64,000 nt of DNA. Origin: Nitrospirota bacterium (lineage in GTDB: Bacteria > Nitrospirota > Nitrospiria > 2-01-FULL-66-17). Where the stretch lies: assembly GCA_049325295.1 (NCBI GenBank), contig JBMOMD010000043.1, positions 11,578 to 75,577 on the forward strand, read 5' to 3'. A model generated the notes under the pieces. That model saw nothing but the letters and a program-made list of their open reading frames with translations. It had not been told where the DNA came from and ran no database searches. Made by a program: the position numbers and the translations under genes. Shown here piece by piece: positions 6,374-29,343 of this stretch; position 1 is the stretch's first letter; every line of letters begins with the position of its first letter.

Positions 6374-7492
6374 TTACTCCGCGTCGGGTTCCGTTTCGAG
6401 GCGGCAACGCTCACGAATGCTGGACCATTCCTCGGGTAAATCGAAGGCTGTTCTTGGCGGGGCGGCGTGGGCGGAGAGGGCGCGGAGGCGGGTGACGCGT
6501 TCGCCGGTGGCCGGGTGCGTGGAGAGGTACGCGAGCATGCCGGGCATGTCGTGGCCCTCCCGTTCGAGCAGTGCGAAGAACGCGATCATGCCGGCCGGGT
6601 CGATCCCGGCGTCCAGGATCATCCGCATGCCCTCGTCGTCGGCCTCGGTTTCGTGCGCCCGGCTGTAGCGCAACGTGCCGAGGTTGGCCGCGGCGTTCAT
6701 GCCGAACGCGGCGGCGCCGCTCGCGTCGCCGGTGAGCGCGGCGATCACCAGCCCGGTGGAGGCTTGTTGCAGGAGGGCGCGCGTGGAGTGACGCCGGATG
6801 ACGTGCTGCGCTTCATGGGCGAGCACGCCCGCCAGTTCTTCCGGCGTCTCGGTGCGCCGCAACAAGCCCCGAAAGACCACGATCGGGCCGCCCGGCGCCG
6901 CGAACGCGTTGAGTTCGGGAACGTCCAGTACGATCAGGTGAAACGGGTACTCCGCGCCGGAGGATCCCAGCGTGGCGGCGAAGATCTCGTCGATCGCGGT
7001 TTGCAGGGCCGGGTCGTCGCACCGTTCGTCCACGTCGGCAAAATGTTCCAGGACCGCGTCGCCCAACCGCACGTCCCATGACAGGGGAACGTACGGAGTC
7101 ACCGCGCCCACGAGCGCGGGCACGCCGTAATTGATCAGCCCCACGCTCGCGACGATCGCGGCCACCGCGGCCGCCGCGGTCCACGCCATGCGCGATTTGC
7201 GCCGCGACGGGTCGTACGCGGCGGCCCCGAGCCGGGGCGCCTGCCGATAGAGCGCGTCCAACAACGCCCGGTCGTCGATGAGCAGGGCCTCGGCGATGGG
7301 CGCGCCGCGTTCGAAGCGCGCCTGCTCGCCCGCGAAACGCCCCTGCGTGCGCCGGATCTCGTCATACGGCCAGGTCAGGGTGTCGTTTTGCTCGGTGACG
7401 AGCTCGATCCGGTCGGGCAACAGGCGGACGTGCACGCGCCGCCGCTCGGCCGTGCGGCCGTCAAGGTATACGCCGGTCCCGTTGTCCGACAT
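6374..7492 (-). CDS. M48 family zinc metallopeptidase with N-terminal cytoplasmic domain and one TM segment
   Basis: HEAQHVIRRH (HExxH) plus a downstream glutamate-containing helix typical of M48/HtpX-like peptidases. Start MSDNGTG placed at 7492 by frame arithmetic. The upstream part of the 572-aa ORF is rejected. Confidence 0.72.
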   Translation of the reverse strand: MSDNGTGVYLDGRTAERRRVHVRLLPDRIELVTEQNDTLTWPYDEIRRTQGRFAGEQARFERGAPIAEALLIDDRALLDALYRQAPRLGAAAYDPSRRKSRMAWTAAAAVAAIVASVGLINYGVPALVGAVTPYVPLSWDVRLGDAVLEHFADVDERCDDPALQTAIDEIFAATLGSSGAEYPFHLIVLDVPELNAFAAPGGPIVVFRGLLRRTETPEELAGVLAHEAQHVIRRHSTRALLQQASTGLVIAALTGDASGAAAFGMNAAANLGTLRYSRAHETEADDEGMRMILDAGIDPAGMIAFFALLEREGHDMPGMLAYLSTHPATGERVTRLRALSAHAAPPRTAFDLPEEWSSIRERCRLETEPDAE

Positions 7493-14697: not shown

Positions 14698-14716
14698 CCC
14701 CGCGCGCTGCGCGGGG
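14698..14716 (+). terminator. GC hairpin CCCCGCGC-gct-GCGCGGGG directly after the ppdK stop (no U tract)
   Basis: Perfect 8-bp stem with a 3-nt loop, starting 2 nt after the TAG. Confidence 0.4.
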
Positions 14717-14742
14717 AAGACTTCTCATCCGGAGTGGGTGGA

Positions 14743-16080
14743 ATGCTGTCACGGCAGCAGAGTCCACAATCCTCGGGCACGACCTCCTCGCCAAAGCGCG
14801 GCGAGACTCCGAAGTCTCCTGCCTCCACGATCGAGATCAGCCAAGGGCAATCCGGGCGGCTCATCGTGCGCGTGCCGTACACCGCGGAGCGCGTGGCCAA
14901 GATCAAATCTATCACCGGCCGCCAGTGGCATCCGCAGGAAAAGTACTGGTCGGTGCCGCAGTCACCCCAAGCCGTCAACCGTCTGGTGGCTCTCTTTGGC
15001 GGAGAGCGTGTTTCGCTCCTCCCGCCGCTCGACGCGCCACCAATCCAGGATGCCCAGGGGCCGCCCGCGCCACCGGCCTCTCGTCAATCGACGGGAACGA
15101 CCGCCGGGCTTCTCGACGATGTGCGTCGTACGATCCGCAGCCGGCACTACAGCCGACGGACCGAAGAAGCCTATCTGGGCTGGATTCGGCGGTTCCTGCG
15201 GTTTCATGACCAACGTGATCCCGCACAGATGGCTGCCCCGGAGGTATCGCGCTTTCTCAGCACGCTGGCAATCGAGCGCGACGTGTCCGCCTCCACGCAA
15301 AACCAGGCCTTGGCCGCCATCCTCTTCCTGTACAAGGACGTGCTCGACCGCGACCCCGGATGGGTGGAAGGCGTGGTGCGCGCCAAGCGTCCGCAGCGCC
15401 TTCCGGTCGTGCTCTCCAGGCAGGAGGTCCAAGGCCTCTTGTCGGCGCTGCAAGGCGTGCCGTGGATCGCGGGGACCCTGCTCTACGGCGCGGGACTTCG
15501 TCTCATGGAGTGTCTGCGCCTGCGCGTCAAGGACGTGGACTTTGCCCGAGGAGAGATCGTGGTGCGCGAAGGGAAGGGCGGCAAGGACCGGGTCACCATG
15601 CTGCCGTCGGCCGCGGCGCCCAAACTCCGCGCACACCTGGACCGGGTCCGCAAACAGCACACGGCTGACCTGGCCGCAGGCTTCGGCCGGGTCTGGCTGC
15701 CAAACGCCCTAGCCCGCAAGTACCCCAACGCGGACCGCGAGTGGGGGTGGCAGTGGATCTTTCCGGCATCGACCATCTCAGTGGACCCACATAGCGGGGA
15801 GCGACGACGGCACCACCTGCACGAGTCCGTTCCGCAGCGTGCCATCCGCGAGGCCCGGCTCCGTGCTGGGATCACGAGACCCGTCGGTCCTCACACGTTG
15901 CGGCACTGCTTCGCCACGCATCTCCTGGAGTCCGGCCACGACATCCGCACCGTCCAGGAACTTCTCGGCCACAGCGACGTAAGAACCACCATGATCTACA
16001 CCCACGTCCTCAACCGCGGCGGCCTCGGCGTCCAAAGCCCGGCCGACCGGATTCTTGGAGGAGGCAGCGATGAGCGTTAG
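14743..16080 (+). CDS. intI: Integron integrase IntI (tyrosine recombinase with the IntI-specific additional domain) carrying a ~120 aa N-terminal extension
   Basis: [42 protein letters not shown]... matches the IntI-specific insertion. The C-terminal [39 protein letters not shown] is near-identical in pattern to IntI1, as recalled from memory. ATG at 14743 after RBS GGAGTGGGTGGA. Confidence 0.85.
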
Positions 16081-16250
16081 GACGCAGAATTTGTCGTATA
16101 ACATCACTTAACCATCGCTTAATGGAAATCGAGAAAACTGTTGGATTGTTTAATTAATCTGTGGAATAATTCACCATCGTCCTGATCTTGTTAGGACGCA
16201 GTTCTTGCCGTAGTTGCTGAATTCATTAGGACGTCTAATTTTAGTTGGGC
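16076..16250 (+). other. attI-like region. Direct repeats GTTAGGACGCAG (16076-16087, 16190-16201), ATTAGGACGTCT (16225-16236), and core GTTGGGC (16244-16250) at the cassette junction. AT-rich, with a candidate Pc promoter TTGGAT-N17-GAATAAT (16141-16170).
   Basis: GTTRRRY-type integrase-binding half-sites are repeated downstream of the intI stop. Crossover G|TT lies at 16244/16245, where the cassette-1 ORF region begins. Confidence 0.5.
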
Positions 16251-16256
16251 GCCAAT

Positions 16257-17258
16257 ATGACTGAGCGCATCGCTATTGCCGGTGTCTCCGAGCGAGACGT
16301 AGATCTTCTATTGTTGGAGGAGTTTCAGTCTTCCAGCGACTTTCAAGGCTGGTTTGTACGAGAAGCGTTCGGCCCCGACGTTGACTTTGGGCAGTGCACT
16401 GGAGCAAGACGATCAATCACGAACTCTACGGGCGAATCGGATCTCGAGATCTTCTTTGCGAACTCCAAAGGTGAGAAGACCCGGCTCTTGATAGAGAACA
16501 AGGTAAACGCCGGTTTTCAACCACTTCAGGCTGAGCGGTACAAGGAGCGAGGGCTGGGCTACGTTTCTACAGCCCAATGCAACTCCTTTCGAACGGTACT
16601 CATAGCTCCAGCTCGCTACTTCGGTGAATCGGCTTCCCGCAAGGGTTTCGATGGGCGCGTTTCGTATGAGCAGATTCTTCGTTGGTTCGGAGAAGCGGTG
16701 CAACTCGGCGAGAGGCGTCAATACAAAGTCGCATTACTAAGGTCGGCCATTGACAAGGGCACGCTCGGGTACCAACCAGAAGAAGACAAGCCGACAACAG
16801 CGTTTTGGAAGGCGTACTGGCGCTTCGCGCTCGATCGGGCTCCCGAGCTTGAAATGCCGGAGCCCAGTGCAAAACCATCCCGCTCCAGCTTTGTCCATTT
16901 CAGGCCCCGTACTCTGCCGCGCTCGGTAGACATCGTCCACAAGTTCGCATTCGGTCACGTTGATCTGCATTTGCGCGGCATGGGCAAACGTCTTAACGAG
17001 GTGCGCGTTGCCGTGCGACCTTATCTGGCTCCTGCCATGACTGTCGCGGCGGCAGCGAAATCAGCGGCGATACGTATCGAAGTCCCGAAACTACGCGTCA
17101 CGGCGCCATTTGAGGCGCAAACACCAGAGGCAGAACTTGCCCTCGATGCAGCAAAGCGGTTGCACGTATGGTTTATCGACAGCAACGATTTCGCTACGTG
17201 GTTGGTTGGCGCCCAACAATCGGTTGCAGGCGACGCGCCGCGAGCGGCACGTGCCTGA
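16257..17258 (+). CDS. Cassette-encoded PD-(D/E)xK nuclease-superfamily protein of unknown function
   Basis: ~52% GC against a ~67% background. Motif GESDLEIFF...LLIENK (D...ExK) with upstream E/D residues. No RBS, which is common for cassettes. Bounded by GTTGGGC cores. Confidence 0.6.
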   Translation: MTERIAIAGVSERDVDLLLLEEFQSSSDFQGWFVREAFGPDVDFGQCTGARRSITNSTGESDLEIFFANSKGEKTRLLIENKVNAGFQPLQAERYKERGLGYVSTAQCNSFRTVLIAPARYFGESASRKGFDGRVSYEQILRWFGEAVQLGERRQYKVALLRSAIDKGTLGYQPEEDKPTTAFWKAYWRFALDRAPELEMPEPSAKPSRSSFVHFRPRTLPRSVDIVHKFAFGHVDLHLRGMGKRLNEVRVAVRPYLAPAMTVAAAAKSAAIRIEVPKLRVTAPFEAQTPEAELALDAAKRLHVWFIDSNDFATWLVGAQQSVAGDAPRAARA

Positions 17259-17273
17259 ACCGAAGCGTTGGGC
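17211..17273 (+). other. attC recombination site of cassette 1 (63 bp)
   Basis: GCCCAACAATCGGTTGCAGGCGACGCGCCGCGAGCGGCACGTGCCTGAACCGAAGCGTTGGGC. R''=GCCCAAC and R'=GTTGGGC, with imperfectly complementary L arms and bulged bases. Strongly resembles aadA-type attC, recalled from memory. Confidence 0.65.
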
Positions 17274-17290
17274 GCCATAACAGAAGAACC

Positions 17291-17644
17291 ATGAACGTTC
17301 GCATTGCGACAACCGATTCCGAGATTGCCATCTGCTATCCAGTAATGCGGGAGCTTCGTCCGCACATCGCGGAAGAGCGATTTCTCTCCCGGATCCGGAG
17401 TCAAGAAGGTGCAGGCTATCGGCTCGCCTATGTGCAAGAACCAAATGGCGTAGTTGCGGTTGCTGGATTCCGAGTCGGTGAGAATCTGGCTTGGGGGCGT
17501 TTTCTGTACGTCGATGATCTTGTAACCCTTCCCGCACACCGATCAAAGGGCTATGGTGCCAAGTTGCTTTCGTGGCTCAAAGAACAAGCCGCAAAGGAAG
17601 GTTGTGAGTGCTTGGTCCGGGGTCGGACCCGCGCAATGTGTTGA
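17291..17644 (+). pseudogene. GNAT family N-acetyltransferase, 3'-truncated by insertion of the RAYT/IS element
   Basis: GNAT motif A (HRSKGYGAKLL) is present. The protein ends 9 aa after GCECL, with the beta5-beta7 region missing. The sequence diverges exactly where the element's inverted repeat begins (17614). ~53% GC. Confidence 0.55.
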
Positions 17645-18551
17645 AAAGTCATCCGCCTTTGGGCACAATGAGGCCGCTGGAGGTCTTGGATCGCACGTTG
17701 TAGAGCCAAAACTACGCTGCAGGGAGGAAGCGTCATGCCGCGCGCCCATCGCTATTTTCTTCCCCATCACATCTGGCACATCACGCACCGGTGTCATCAA
17801 CGGGCGTTTCTCCTGAAGTTCGCGCGTGACCGCCGGCGCTGGCGGCAGTGGCTGTTTGAGGCCACGAAGCGGTTTCGGCTGTGTGTGCTCAATTACGTCG
17901 TCACGTCCAACCATATTCATCTCTTGGTCCGGGATCAGGGGCGAGGCGAGATCGCGCGCGCGATGCAGCTCATCGCGGGACGCACGGCCCAGGAATACAA
18001 TCAACGCAAAGGGCGACAGGGAGCGTTCTGGGAGGATCGGTATCATGCCACGGCGGTCGACACGGAGAGCTACCTGGCCCGCTGTCTGGTCTACATTGAT
18101 CTGAACATGGTGCGGGCGGGCGCCGTGGCGCACCCGCGTGACTGGGACGCGGGCGGCTATCACGAGCTGCATGCGCCACCCACGCGGTACGCGATCATCG
18201 ATCAGCCGGCGCTCACCGAGTTGCTCGGCCTGAAGAGTCTCCAGCAACTACAGGAGACTCACGCGCTGTGGATCGAGGAGGCGATCCGGGCGGGAGGTGG
18301 ACCACGCGATCCGATGTGGACCGAGAGCGTGGCGGTCGGCCGCGCCGAGTTCGTGCGAGATGTCCAGGTCGAGCTGGGGAGCAAGGCGCGATATCGGGAG
18401 GTCGTGGCCGAAGGACAGGCGCACGTGCTGCGCGAACCGCCGACCCTCTACGGGGCATTTTGACGGGCAAAAGGCCGCGCGAAGGGCTCAACCGTCCGCC
18501 GTGGCGGACCAAAACCTCGAGACATCAATCGATTGCGCTGGTCCGACCCCG
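17614..18551 (+). mobile_element. RAYT / IS200-IS605-like element bounded by 12-bp inverted repeats CGGGGTCGGACC (17618-17629) and GGTCCGACCCCG (18540-18551)
   Basis: Left end GGTCCGGGGTCGGACC is itself a hairpin. A second GTCCGCC-gt-GGCGGAC hairpin sits at 18494-18509. Inserted inside cassette 2. Confidence 0.5.
17735..18463 (+). CDS. Y1 HUH transposase, REP-associated tyrosine transposase (RAYT / IS200-like TnpA), 242 aa
   Basis: HUH motif SNHIHLLV and the catalytic-Y helix VYIDLNMVRAGAV (YIxxNPVRAGLV-like). N-terminus HIWHITHRCHQRAFLL matches the Transposase_17 family. Confidence 0.75.
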   Translation: MPRAHRYFLPHHIWHITHRCHQRAFLLKFARDRRRWRQWLFEATKRFRLCVLNYVVTSNHIHLLVRDQGRGEIARAMQLIAGRTAQEYNQRKGRQGAFWEDRYHATAVDTESYLARCLVYIDLNMVRAGAVAHPRDWDAGGYHELHAPPTRYAIIDQPALTELLGLKSLQQLQETHALWIEEAIRAGGGPRDPMWTESVAVGRAEFVRDVQVELGSKARYREVVAEGQAHVLREPPTLYGAF

Positions 18552-29266: not shown

Positions 29267-29343
29267 GCCCCCGTAGCTCAGTTGGATAGAGCAGCGGTTT
29301 CCTAAACCGCGTGTCGGCCGTTCAATTCGGCCCGGGGGCACCA
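29267..29343 (+). tRNA. tRNA-Arg (anticodon CCT), CCA encoded
   Basis: Cloverleaf: acceptor GCCCCCG/CGGGGGC, D-arm GCTC...GAGC, anticodon stem GCGGT/ACCGC with loop TTCCTAA, T-arm GGCCG-TTCAATT-CGGCC. 77 nt. Confidence 0.88.

What the first reader, a model, noticed from the sequence alone, without database searches (positions are those of the whole stretch)
14743..15120. ~120-aa N-terminal extension on the integron integrase (S/P/T/Q-rich linker plus small basic domain [34 protein letters not shown])
Homology to IntI1 begins only at [15 protein letters not shown], which corresponds to about IntI1 residue 14. The preceding ~125 residues have no counterpart in canonical IntIs. The ORF is continuous and has an RBS, so it is not obviously a mis-called start. 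An extra N-terminal DNA-binding or regulatory domain on an IntI would be unusual. Alternatively, translation may initiate at an internal non-ATG codon.
Basis: seen in the sequence. Interest (0 to 1): 0.55.

Follow-up and report, generated by a model that had tools for sequence, protein, structure and literature searches.

The report
HARP-like DNA-binding domain on integron integrase
The extra 122 residues on this integron integrase are real: a conserved ~65-residue domain related to the fork-DNA-binding HARP domain of SNF2 helicases, tethered by a floppy linker, found on many environmental integron integrases, absent from the literature searched here, and cut off in the public annotation of this gene.

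Summary
The intI ORF (ATG 14743, stop 16080, 445 aa) has 122 residues ahead of the IntI core. They comprise a disordered S/P/T/Q-rich leader (aa 1-28), a folded basic domain (aa 29-97) and a disordered Pro-rich linker (aa 98-122).

The domain is translated and under purifying selection: dN/dS is 0.23-0.30, against 0.11-0.13 for the core. It is present in 73 of the 121 closest IntIs, and 2,839 protein clusters match its profile. The internal GTG that NCBI uses as the start (15121) is not conserved as a start codon.

The domain is a prokaryotic HARP-like domain.
- hhalign gives 99.65% probability against the N-terminal domains of phage and bacterial SNF2 helicases, which pass Pfam's HARP threshold.
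- The AlphaFold model (pLDDT 83-91) resembles the T4 UvsW N-domain, the XPB damage-recognition domain and the SMARCAL1 HARP domain.
- One to four copies also precede non-IntI Xer-like recombinases.

The integron looks active, with attI and cassettes downstream of intI.

Most likely function (inferred, not shown): an extra DNA-structure-reading module that helps IntI engage folded attC hairpins or branched intermediates. An arm-site binding role is the main rival. I found no paper that describes this fusion. I rate it a new variant of a known kind.

The parts
14731..14734 (+). Shine-Dalgarno-like GGAG, 8 nt upstream of the ATG
   Evidence: Read directly from the sequence.
14743..14826 (+). Start codon plus low-complexity S/P/T/Q/G-rich leader (aa 1-28). 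It is predicted disordered and is shared only with the closest relatives (P0001, P0006).
   Evidence: pLDDT is below 50 for aa 1-26. 71% of residues are S/T/P/Q/G. dN/dS is 0.68-0.76. The MLSRQQ start is conserved in L081 and L083.
14827..15033 (+). HARP-like domain (aa 29-97), with secondary structure strand-strand-helix-strand-strand-helix-strand and pI 10.1. Signature: GRLIV..PY..ERVAKIK...GR.W....K.W.VP.....L..LF.
15034..15108 (+). Variable Pro-rich flexible linker (aa 98-122)
   Evidence: pLDDT is below 50 for aa 97-117. Length and sequence vary among homologues. dN/dS is 0.45-0.80.
15109..16080 (+). Integron integrase core: SAM-like core-binding domain plus catalytic domain with the IntI-specific insertion, and the stop codon
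   Evidence: TIGR02249 scores 474.5 bits against a cut-off of 265, covering model positions 1-315. Pfam Phage_int_SAM_4 and Phage_integrase both match. The catalytic residues R261, K278, H384, R387, H410 and Y419 are invariant in A2.
15121..15123 (+). Internal GTG (Val127) that the NCBI record uses as its start (P0002, 319 aa). It is not a conserved start.
   Evidence: P0002 is 100% identical over 71% of the query and begins [11 protein letters not shown]. The homologous codon is GTC, GTT, GTA, GCA or GCG in 13 of 19 loci.
16066..16248 (+). attI region downstream of intI. It holds three direct repeats of TTAGGAC (at 16077, 16191 and 16226; the first overlaps the intI stop codon) and the crossover site TTTTAG|TTGGGC at 16244/16245.
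   Evidence: The region is conserved in L081, L082 and L083. The sequences diverge exactly after TTTTAGTT into different first cassettes.
16245..17273 (+). Cassette 1: a PD-(D/E)XK-family ORF (16257-17258) and its attC (17211-17273, GCCCAAC...GTTGGGC)
   Evidence: Pfam PDDEXK_4 match. The attC hairpin folds at -45.7 kcal/mol over 63 nt, flanked by complementary RYYYAAC and GTTRRRY boxes.

Best explanation
The 5' extension encodes a genuine N-terminal module of the integron integrase. It consists of a disordered leader, a ~65-70-residue basic domain and a ~25-residue flexible Pro-rich tether to the normal IntI core.

Shown here: the domain is translated, conserved and confidently folded. It is homologous to the HARP-like domains that sit in front of phage and bacterial SNF2 helicases. 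It belongs to the same structural class as the SMARCAL1 HARP substrate-recognition domain, the T4 UvsW N-domain and the XPB damage-recognition domain.

Inferred mechanism: like those domains, it binds DNA by shape (single-strand/double-strand junctions, forks, four-way junctions) rather than by sequence. A folded attC on single-stranded DNA is a duplex stem with two single-stranded arms, which is a fork-like junction. The attC x attI product is an atypical Holliday junction that needs replication to be resolved. The tethered domain would therefore give each IntI monomer a second, structure-specific DNA contact. That contact would capture or stabilise folded attC sites or branched intermediates, or keep the enzyme at replication forks.
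For: Real and translated:
- The ORF is continuous, with GGAG 8 nt upstream of the ATG, and there is no alternative start before the domain.
- dN/dS of the domain is 0.23 and 0.30 against two relatives. The core gives 0.11 and 0.13; the leader and linker give 0.45-0.80.
- Independent gene calls in more than 50 homologues start 2-10 residues before the domain.
- The internal GTG is not conserved as a start.

Fold:
- pLDDT is 83 for the domain alone and about 91 in the full-length model, flanked by disordered segments.

HARP homology:
- Pfam HARP hits 36 of 50 members, all below threshold.
- The best PDB profile hit is the SMARCAL1 HARP structure 4o66.
- The A1 profile finds SNF2 helicases P0220 and P0232 with two N-terminal copies (E about 1e-21 to 1e-22). 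It also finds P0196, P0209 and P0258. All of these exceed Pfam's HARP gathering score.
- The same domain precedes SNF2 helicases on phage contigs.
- hhalign of A1 against these SNF2-linked domains gives 99.65% probability, E 3.5e-25 and 40% identity over 60 columns.

Consistent with DNA binding:
- Median pI of the domain is 9.5.

Biological setting:
- The integron is intact and apparently active, with a conserved attI, different first cassettes in relatives, and an attC.

From established knowledge, not tested here:
- HARP domains confer fork and junction binding on SMARCAL1 (Ghosal 2011, listed; PDB 4o66 is titled 'HARP substrate recognition domain').
- IntI recombines folded single-stranded attC.
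Against: - No DNA-binding experiment exists for this domain, and its substrate preference is pure inference from distant homologues.
- The query itself stays below Pfam's HARP threshold (17.6-19.2 bits against 25).
- Foldseek found no significant PDB match (best E 0.06).
- The same fold in T4 MotA binds double-stranded DNA sequence-specifically, so the fold does not dictate structure-specific binding.
- Well-studied IntIs recombine attC without any such domain, and close relatives that lack it have the same integron layout. The domain is therefore accessory, not essential to the chemistry.
Confidence: 0.5

Rival explanations
1. Arm-type binding. The domain is a sequence-specific double-stranded-DNA-binding 'arm' domain, as in lambda Int. 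It would recognise the direct repeats in attI (TTAGGAC at 16077 and 16191), making this IntI a heterobivalent recombinase that bridges accessory and core sites.
For: - The architecture (N-domain, flexible ~25-aa linker, core-binding domain, catalytic domain) is that of heterobivalent tyrosine recombinases.
- attI carries three conserved direct repeats at fixed spacing in the window, L081/L082 and L083.
- Tandem copies in other recombinases could read arrays of sites.
Against: - The repeats resemble the core-type GTTRRRY box itself. By analogy with DR1 and DR2 of attI1, which IntI1 binds without any N-domain (established knowledge), the core could bind them.
- The domain's sequence relatives are HARP domains of helicases, not arm-binding domains.
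- No Pfam arm-binding family matches.
- The domain is highly conserved across phyla (71% mean column identity), while attI sequences differ, for example between W and L084/L085. That argues against sequence-specific co-evolution.
Confidence: 0.2
2. Protein-protein or regulatory module. The domain docks IntI to a host factor (replisome, SSB, a helicase), or it controls oligomerisation or activity, without contacting DNA.
For: - It is tethered by a long disordered linker and preceded by a disordered leader, an arrangement typical of recruitment modules.
- It is dispensable in sister clades.
Against: - Every characterised relative of the fold (HARP, UvsW N-domain, XPB DRD, MotA C-terminal domain) binds nucleic acid.
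- The domain is basic.
- It recurs in front of two unrelated DNA enzymes, SNF2 helicases and tyrosine recombinases. That fits a portable DNA-binding module better than a partner-specific docking site.
Confidence: 0.15
3. Annotation artefact. The true protein starts at the internal GTG 15121, as in the NCBI record, and the upstream in-frame sequence is untranslated.
For: - NCBI's P0002 is the 319-aa short form.
- High-GC genomes produce long spurious ORFs.
Against: - The domain is under purifying selection.
- It is conserved across at least seven phyla.
- The fold is confident.
- It is homologous to a known domain.
- The internal codon can act as a start in only 6 of 19 loci and has no SD.
Confidence: 0.03

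Closest known systems
HARP domain (Pfam PF07443) of SMARCAL1 and of prokaryotic and phage SNF2 helicases. Same structural class as the T4 UvsW N-domain and the XPB damage-recognition domain.
   Same: - Sequence signature: hydrophobic strand, Y, helix ending in IK, G-R-R-W or Y, K-x-W-x-V/F-P, helix.
- Profile-profile probability of 99.65% against SNF2-linked copies.
- Occurs in tandem copies.
   Different: - It is fused to a tyrosine recombinase instead of an SNF2 ATPase.
- The query scores below Pfam's threshold.
- It has an extra N-terminal strand pair and a C-terminal strand relative to the 55-residue Pfam model.
- DNA-binding specificity is untested.
Canonical integron integrases (IntI1, VchIntIA; TIGR02249)
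   Same: - Full-length match of the core, including the IntI-specific insertion and the RKHRHY catalytic residues.
- Associated attI, cassettes and attC.
   Different: - Canonical IntIs start about 10-15 residues before the core-binding domain and have no accessory N-terminal domain.
- Here attI and the cassettes lie downstream of intI. This is the atypical 'Treponema-type' orientation described in PMC3607928.
Heterobivalent tyrosine recombinases with N-terminal arm-binding domains (lambda Int, Tn916 Int)
   Same: A small N-terminal DNA-binding-type domain joined by a flexible linker to the core-binding and catalytic domains.
   Different: - The fold and the family are different, and no arm-binding Pfam family matches.
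- No distinct arm-type sites have been demonstrated.

Membership tests
Integron integrase (IntI) | Tyrosine-recombinase catalytic residues R-K-H-R-H-Y | tested here: met
   R261, K278, H384, R387, H410 and Y419 are invariant in the 60-sequence alignment A2. Pfam Phage_integrase matches at 4e-35.
Integron integrase (IntI) | IntI-specific additional domain inserted in the catalytic domain | tested here: met
   TIGR02249 aligns over positions 1-315 of 315 at 474.5 bits (cut-off 265). The segment [25 protein letters not shown] is present. Xer-like relatives lack core positions ~180-230.
Integron integrase (IntI) | Adjacent attI and attC-bounded cassettes | tested here: met
   The attI is conserved in three related loci, with different cassettes after the G|TT crossover. 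An attC lies at 17211-17273. attC-like sites are 10-fold enriched downstream of related intI genes, p = 2e-6.
HARP domain (PF07443) | Score at or above Pfam's gathering threshold (25 bits) | tested here: not met
   The query scores 14.5-19.2 bits. 36 of 50 family members hit, all below threshold.
HARP domain (PF07443) | Significant profile-level homology to bona fide HARP domains | tested here: met
   The A1 profile retrieves P0196, P0209, P0258, P0220 and P0232, which score 29.6-44.7 bits on Pfam HARP. hhalign gives 99.65% probability, E 3.5e-25. The best PDB profile hit is 4o66.
HARP domain (PF07443) | HARP / substrate-recognition-domain fold | tested here: met
HARP domain (PF07443) | Binds fork or junction DNA and directs an SNF2 motor | not testable with these tools
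   There is no SNF2 motor here. DNA binding needs EMSA.
Lambda-Int-type heterobivalent recombinases | Arm-binding domain of the lambda/Tn916 family, with distinct arm-type sites | tested here: not met
   No arm-binding Pfam or NCBIfam family matches the N-terminus. The attI repeats resemble the core-type box, so whether distinct arm sites exist remains inconclusive.

The most novel reading that the evidence does not exclude
A large, cross-phylum class of tyrosine recombinases carries one to four HARP-type domains that read DNA shape. The class includes a major clade of integron integrases and related Xer-like enzymes. In integrons, the domain would recognise the fork-like base of the folded attC hairpin, or the atypical Holliday junction or replication fork. 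That would physically couple cassette capture to single-stranded or replicating DNA. It would be a heterobivalent recombinase whose 'arm' reads structure instead of sequence, a principle not described for site-specific recombination.
Probability: 0.3. Interest if true: 0.8.

Novelty: new variant of a known kind. Interest (0 to 1): 0.6.

Why it matters
Integron integrases are the textbook case of a recombinase that acts on folded single-stranded DNA. Two questions remain open: how the enzyme finds and stabilises attC hairpins in vivo, and how the atypical junction is handed to replication.

A tethered HARP-type domain is the module that SMARCAL1-type enzymes use to recognise forks. Finding it on a majority of the environmental IntIs related to this one gives a concrete, testable handle on both questions. 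The affected phyla include Nitrospirota, Elusimicrobiota, Methylomirabilota, Armatimonadota, Chloroflexota, Latescibacterota and probably Treponema.

It also matters for annotation.
- IntI models (TIGR02249, IntegronFinder-style profiles) start at the core.
- NCBI truncated this very gene by 126 codons.
- Pfam lists no domain for the N-terminus of any of these proteins.

Finally, it widens the known partners of the HARP domain from SNF2 motors to site-specific recombinases.

Tried and rejected
- Internal-start hypothesis: rejected on codon conservation and dN/dS.
- The AFDB50 fold library was unavailable.
- tblastn of the domain against the curated phage and plasmid collections found nothing. 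The IMG/VR scan did find phage SNF2 examples.
- PHROGs has no family for the domain.
- Literature searches turned up nothing relevant, only author-name hits. The term pairs and sets tried were HARP with integron integrase or tyrosine recombinase, HARP-like with integrase, 'N-terminal extension' with integron integrase, and AlphaFold with integron integrases. The structural paper on the SMARCAL1 HARP domain was not held.
- I tried to test whether Treponema IntIs carry the domain.
  - The published supplement shows only core motifs.
  - A search seeded with the T. denticola core returned mostly fragments.
  - One Treponema-like contig shows the domain split by a frameshift. This is suggestive only.
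- I asked whether the domain correlates with the downstream-attI layout. It does not discriminate, because relatives without the domain share the layout.
- My attC detector is crude (regex plus fold energy). It missed sites in L084 and L085, so its counts are only relative.

Full report
**Observation**

The window holds a continuous ORF at 14734..16080 on the + strand. No other ATG, GTG or TTG occurs in frame between it and the conserved part of the extension.

NCBIfam's integron-integrase model TIGR02249 aligns end to end with ORF residues 126-440 (474.5 bits, cut-off 265). The IntI1-type model aligns from its position 16. About 122 residues counted from the ATG therefore precede everything that canonical IntIs have. 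The only adjustment is that the S/P/T/Q-rich stretch is a leader in front of the small basic domain, and a second, Pro-rich linker follows that domain.

**Anatomy (numbering from ATG 14743)**

| Segment | Residues | Properties |
|---|---|---|
| Leader | 1-28 | 71% S/T/P/Q/G, predicted disordered |
| Domain | 29-97 | pI 10.1, strand-strand-helix-strand-strand-helix-strand |
| Linker | 98-122 | Pro-rich, variable in length and sequence, disordered |
| Core | 123-445 | IntI core |

The domain scores pLDDT 83 when modelled alone and about 91 in the full-length model. The two flanking segments score below 50. The protein is a bead on a string in front of a normal IntI.

**Is it translated?**

Four lines of evidence say yes.
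- Many of the best hits in the 5.8-billion-protein collection are 400-460-aa 'integron integrases' that cover 91-99% of the query. Their independent gene calls start 2-10 residues before the first strand of the domain.
- The domain alignment of 50 sequences (A1) has 71% mean column identity, with invariant R, W, W and P.
- Two relatives with DNA in hand (L081, which has the same ppdK-intI synteny, and L083) give these dN/dS values:

| Segment | dN/dS vs L081 | dN/dS vs L083 |
|---|---|---|
| Domain | 0.23 | 0.30 |
| Core | 0.11 | 0.13 |
| Leader | 0.76 | 0.68 |
| Linker | 0.45 | 0.80 |

- The internal GTG at 15121 is where the NCBI record for this very gene starts (P0002, 319 aa, Nitrospirota MAG). 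It has no Shine-Dalgarno sequence. The corresponding codon is a non-start codon in 13 of 19 related loci.

The short annotated form is an annotation error.

**What the domain is**

The evidence points to a HARP-like domain.
- Pfam's only hit is HARP (PF07443). It is below threshold for the query (14.5-19.2 bits against 25) but recurs in 36 of 50 family members. DUF5710 is a second weak hit, in 16 of 50.
- The best PDB sequence-profile hit is the SMARCAL1 HARP structure 4o66, at E 0.097.
- A profile search of 1.84 billion representatives found 2,839 clusters at E <= 1e-3 and 763 at E <= 1e-10.
- Among those hits are SNF2 helicases with two N-terminal copies (P0220, P0232) and other proteins (P0196, P0209, P0258). 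All pass Pfam's HARP gathering score, at 29.6-44.7 bits.
- On IMG/VR phage contigs the same domain sits in front of SNF2 helicases, for example DGKLIVRFPYDPEKIAAIKTVTGRRWNSEKKFWTVPHTG.
- hhalign of A1 against these SNF2-linked domains gives 99.65% probability, E 3.5e-25 and 40% identity over 60 columns.
- Foldseek ranks 4o66 second but without a significant E-value.

The domain is therefore the prokaryotic version of the HARP domain, here fused to a recombinase.

**Distribution**

- In an NJ tree of the 115 nearest IntI cores, carriers form two large blocks. They are separated by blocks of IntIs that have short, unrelated N-termini. Overall 73 of the 121 sequences carry the domain. The few exceptions inside carrier blocks look like mis-called starts.
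- A scan of one genome per GTDB species returned 80 loci, all MAGs. They come from Nitrospirota, Elusimicrobiota, Methylomirabilota, Armatimonadota, Chloroflexota, Latescibacterota, Deltaproteobacteria and others.
- Most of these loci are full IntIs. Many are pseudogenised. At least seven are Xer-like recombinases that lack the IntI insertion.
- The profile search also found Xer-like recombinases of 470-790 aa with two to four tandem copies.
- The curated plasmid and phage collections have no BLAST-level match.

**Context**

intI follows ppdK after a 46-bp gap that holds a GC-rich hairpin. The attI lies downstream of intI. Three direct TTAGGAC repeats sit at 16077, 16191 and 16226, and the first overlaps the stop codon. 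They are followed by TTTTAG|TTGGGC.

This region is conserved in L081, L082 and L083. The sequences diverge exactly after the G|TT into different first cassettes, which is the signature of an active attI.

- Cassette 1 encodes a PD-(D/E)XK-family protein and ends in a 63-nt attC at 17211-17273.
- Cassette 2 is a GNAT gene cut short by an IS200-like element.

Across the related loci, attC-like sites are ten times denser downstream of intI than upstream: 16 in 145 kb against 4 in 367 kb, p = 2e-6. In addition, 43 of 80 contigs end within 1.5 kb after intI.

This 'intI transcribed toward attI' layout is the atypical one already described for Treponema (PMC3607928). Relatives without the domain share it, so layout and domain are not strictly coupled.

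**Mechanism**

Shown: a translated, conserved, folded, basic, HARP-homologous domain tethered to IntI.

Inferred: it is an accessory DNA contact. I commit to structure-specific binding as the most likely role (about 0.5).
- The domain's sequence relatives are the fork-recognition modules of annealing and fork-remodelling helicases. Its structural relatives UvsW and XPB bind branched or distorted DNA.
- The natural IntI substrates are exactly such shapes. A hairpin stem flanked by single strands is a fork, and the attC x attI product is an atypical four-way junction that replication must resolve.
- The ~25-residue linker would allow the domain to reach the stem base next to the R box.

Rivals:
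- A sequence-specific arm-binding role on the attI repeats (0.2). This is weakened because the repeats look like core-type boxes, and because the domain is far more conserved than attI.
- A protein-docking or regulatory role (0.15).
- An artefact (0.03).

**Comparison and novelty**

The protein is a bona fide IntI, since all defining features tested were met. It carries a HARP-family domain. Homology and fold are met, the Pfam threshold is not met by the query itself, and function is untestable here. It is not a lambda-type arm-binding recombinase by family.

I found no paper linking HARP to integrases or tyrosine recombinases. Pfam's precomputed annotations list nothing for these N-termini. 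The sequences themselves are public and labelled 'integron integrase'. What is new is recognising the domain and what it implies. I therefore rate it a new variant of a known kind, with interest 0.6.

**Limits**

- There is no experimental evidence of DNA binding.
- All carriers found are MAGs or metagenomic contigs.
- The overall fraction of IntIs that carry the domain was not measured.
- The Treponema lead is unverified. Published intI lengths of 1233 and 1197 bp, and a frameshifted copy in L096, suggest the domain is present there.

Noticed in passing
window 15121 (and protein P0002): The public NCBI annotation of this same gene (MAG, Nitrospirota, 319 aa) starts at the internal GTG and omits the whole leader, domain and linker. 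Other members, such as P0065 and P0076, are annotated full length.
   Followed up: yes
window 16066-16248; L081 2660-2845; L082 1400-1590; L083 1470-1660: attI lies downstream of the intI stop and holds three conserved direct TTAGGA[C/A]/TTAGGAT repeats at fixed spacing. Four loci diverge exactly after TTTTAG|TT into different first cassettes. L081 and L082 have identical attI but different cassettes.
   Followed up: partly
window 17291-18463: The second cassette encodes a GNAT acetyltransferase that is truncated at its C-terminus (117 aa). It is followed by an IS200-like Y1 transposase gene (17735-18463). The cassette array seems to end there, and no second attC was found.
   Followed up: partly
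window 16257-17258: The first cassette encodes a 333-aa protein with a PD-(D/E)XK nuclease (PDDEXK_4) match. Its 3' end overlaps the attC (17211-17273).
   Followed up: partly
window 14699-14717: A perfect 8-bp GC hairpin (CCCCGCGC-GCT-GCGCGGGG) sits in the 46-bp gap between the ppdK stop and the intI start. It has no T-tract, and the gap contains no sigma-70-like promoter. intI may be read through from ppdK. The same ppdK-intI synteny occurs in L081.
   Followed up: partly
proteins P0163, P0164, P0173, P0180, P0196, P0197, P0229; loci L005, L023, L043, L059, L066, L073, L078: Xer-like tyrosine recombinases that lack the IntI insertion carry one to four tandem HARP-like domains at the N-terminus, reaching up to 789 aa. 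Their genomic role is unknown.
   Followed up: partly
L096 2385-3664: A Treponema-like intI locus has the HARP-like domain split by a frameshift: MFIEIQPYENETLSVRF... in one frame, then ...IKKVPNRTWMSDKRFWIIP... in another. The intI itself is broken into 283-aa and 99-aa ORFs. Published Treponema intI genes are 1197-1233 bp, long enough to hold the domain.
   Followed up: partly
L001, L004, L007, L011, L019, L024, L051, L052 and others: Many HARP-IntI genes in species-representative genomes are truncated by in-frame stops (74-330 aa). This suggests frequent pseudogenisation of this IntI clade.
   Followed up: no
L084 ~6430-6450 and L085 ~6420-6440: Two IntI relatives without the domain, both from one metagenome, share an attI-like motif GGTCAATTATTGTTCGGCG about 300 bp after the stop. 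They diverge beyond it, and small same-strand ORFs follow downstream.
   Followed up: partly
window 29267-29340: A single tRNA gene, the only Rfam match in the window.
   Followed up: no
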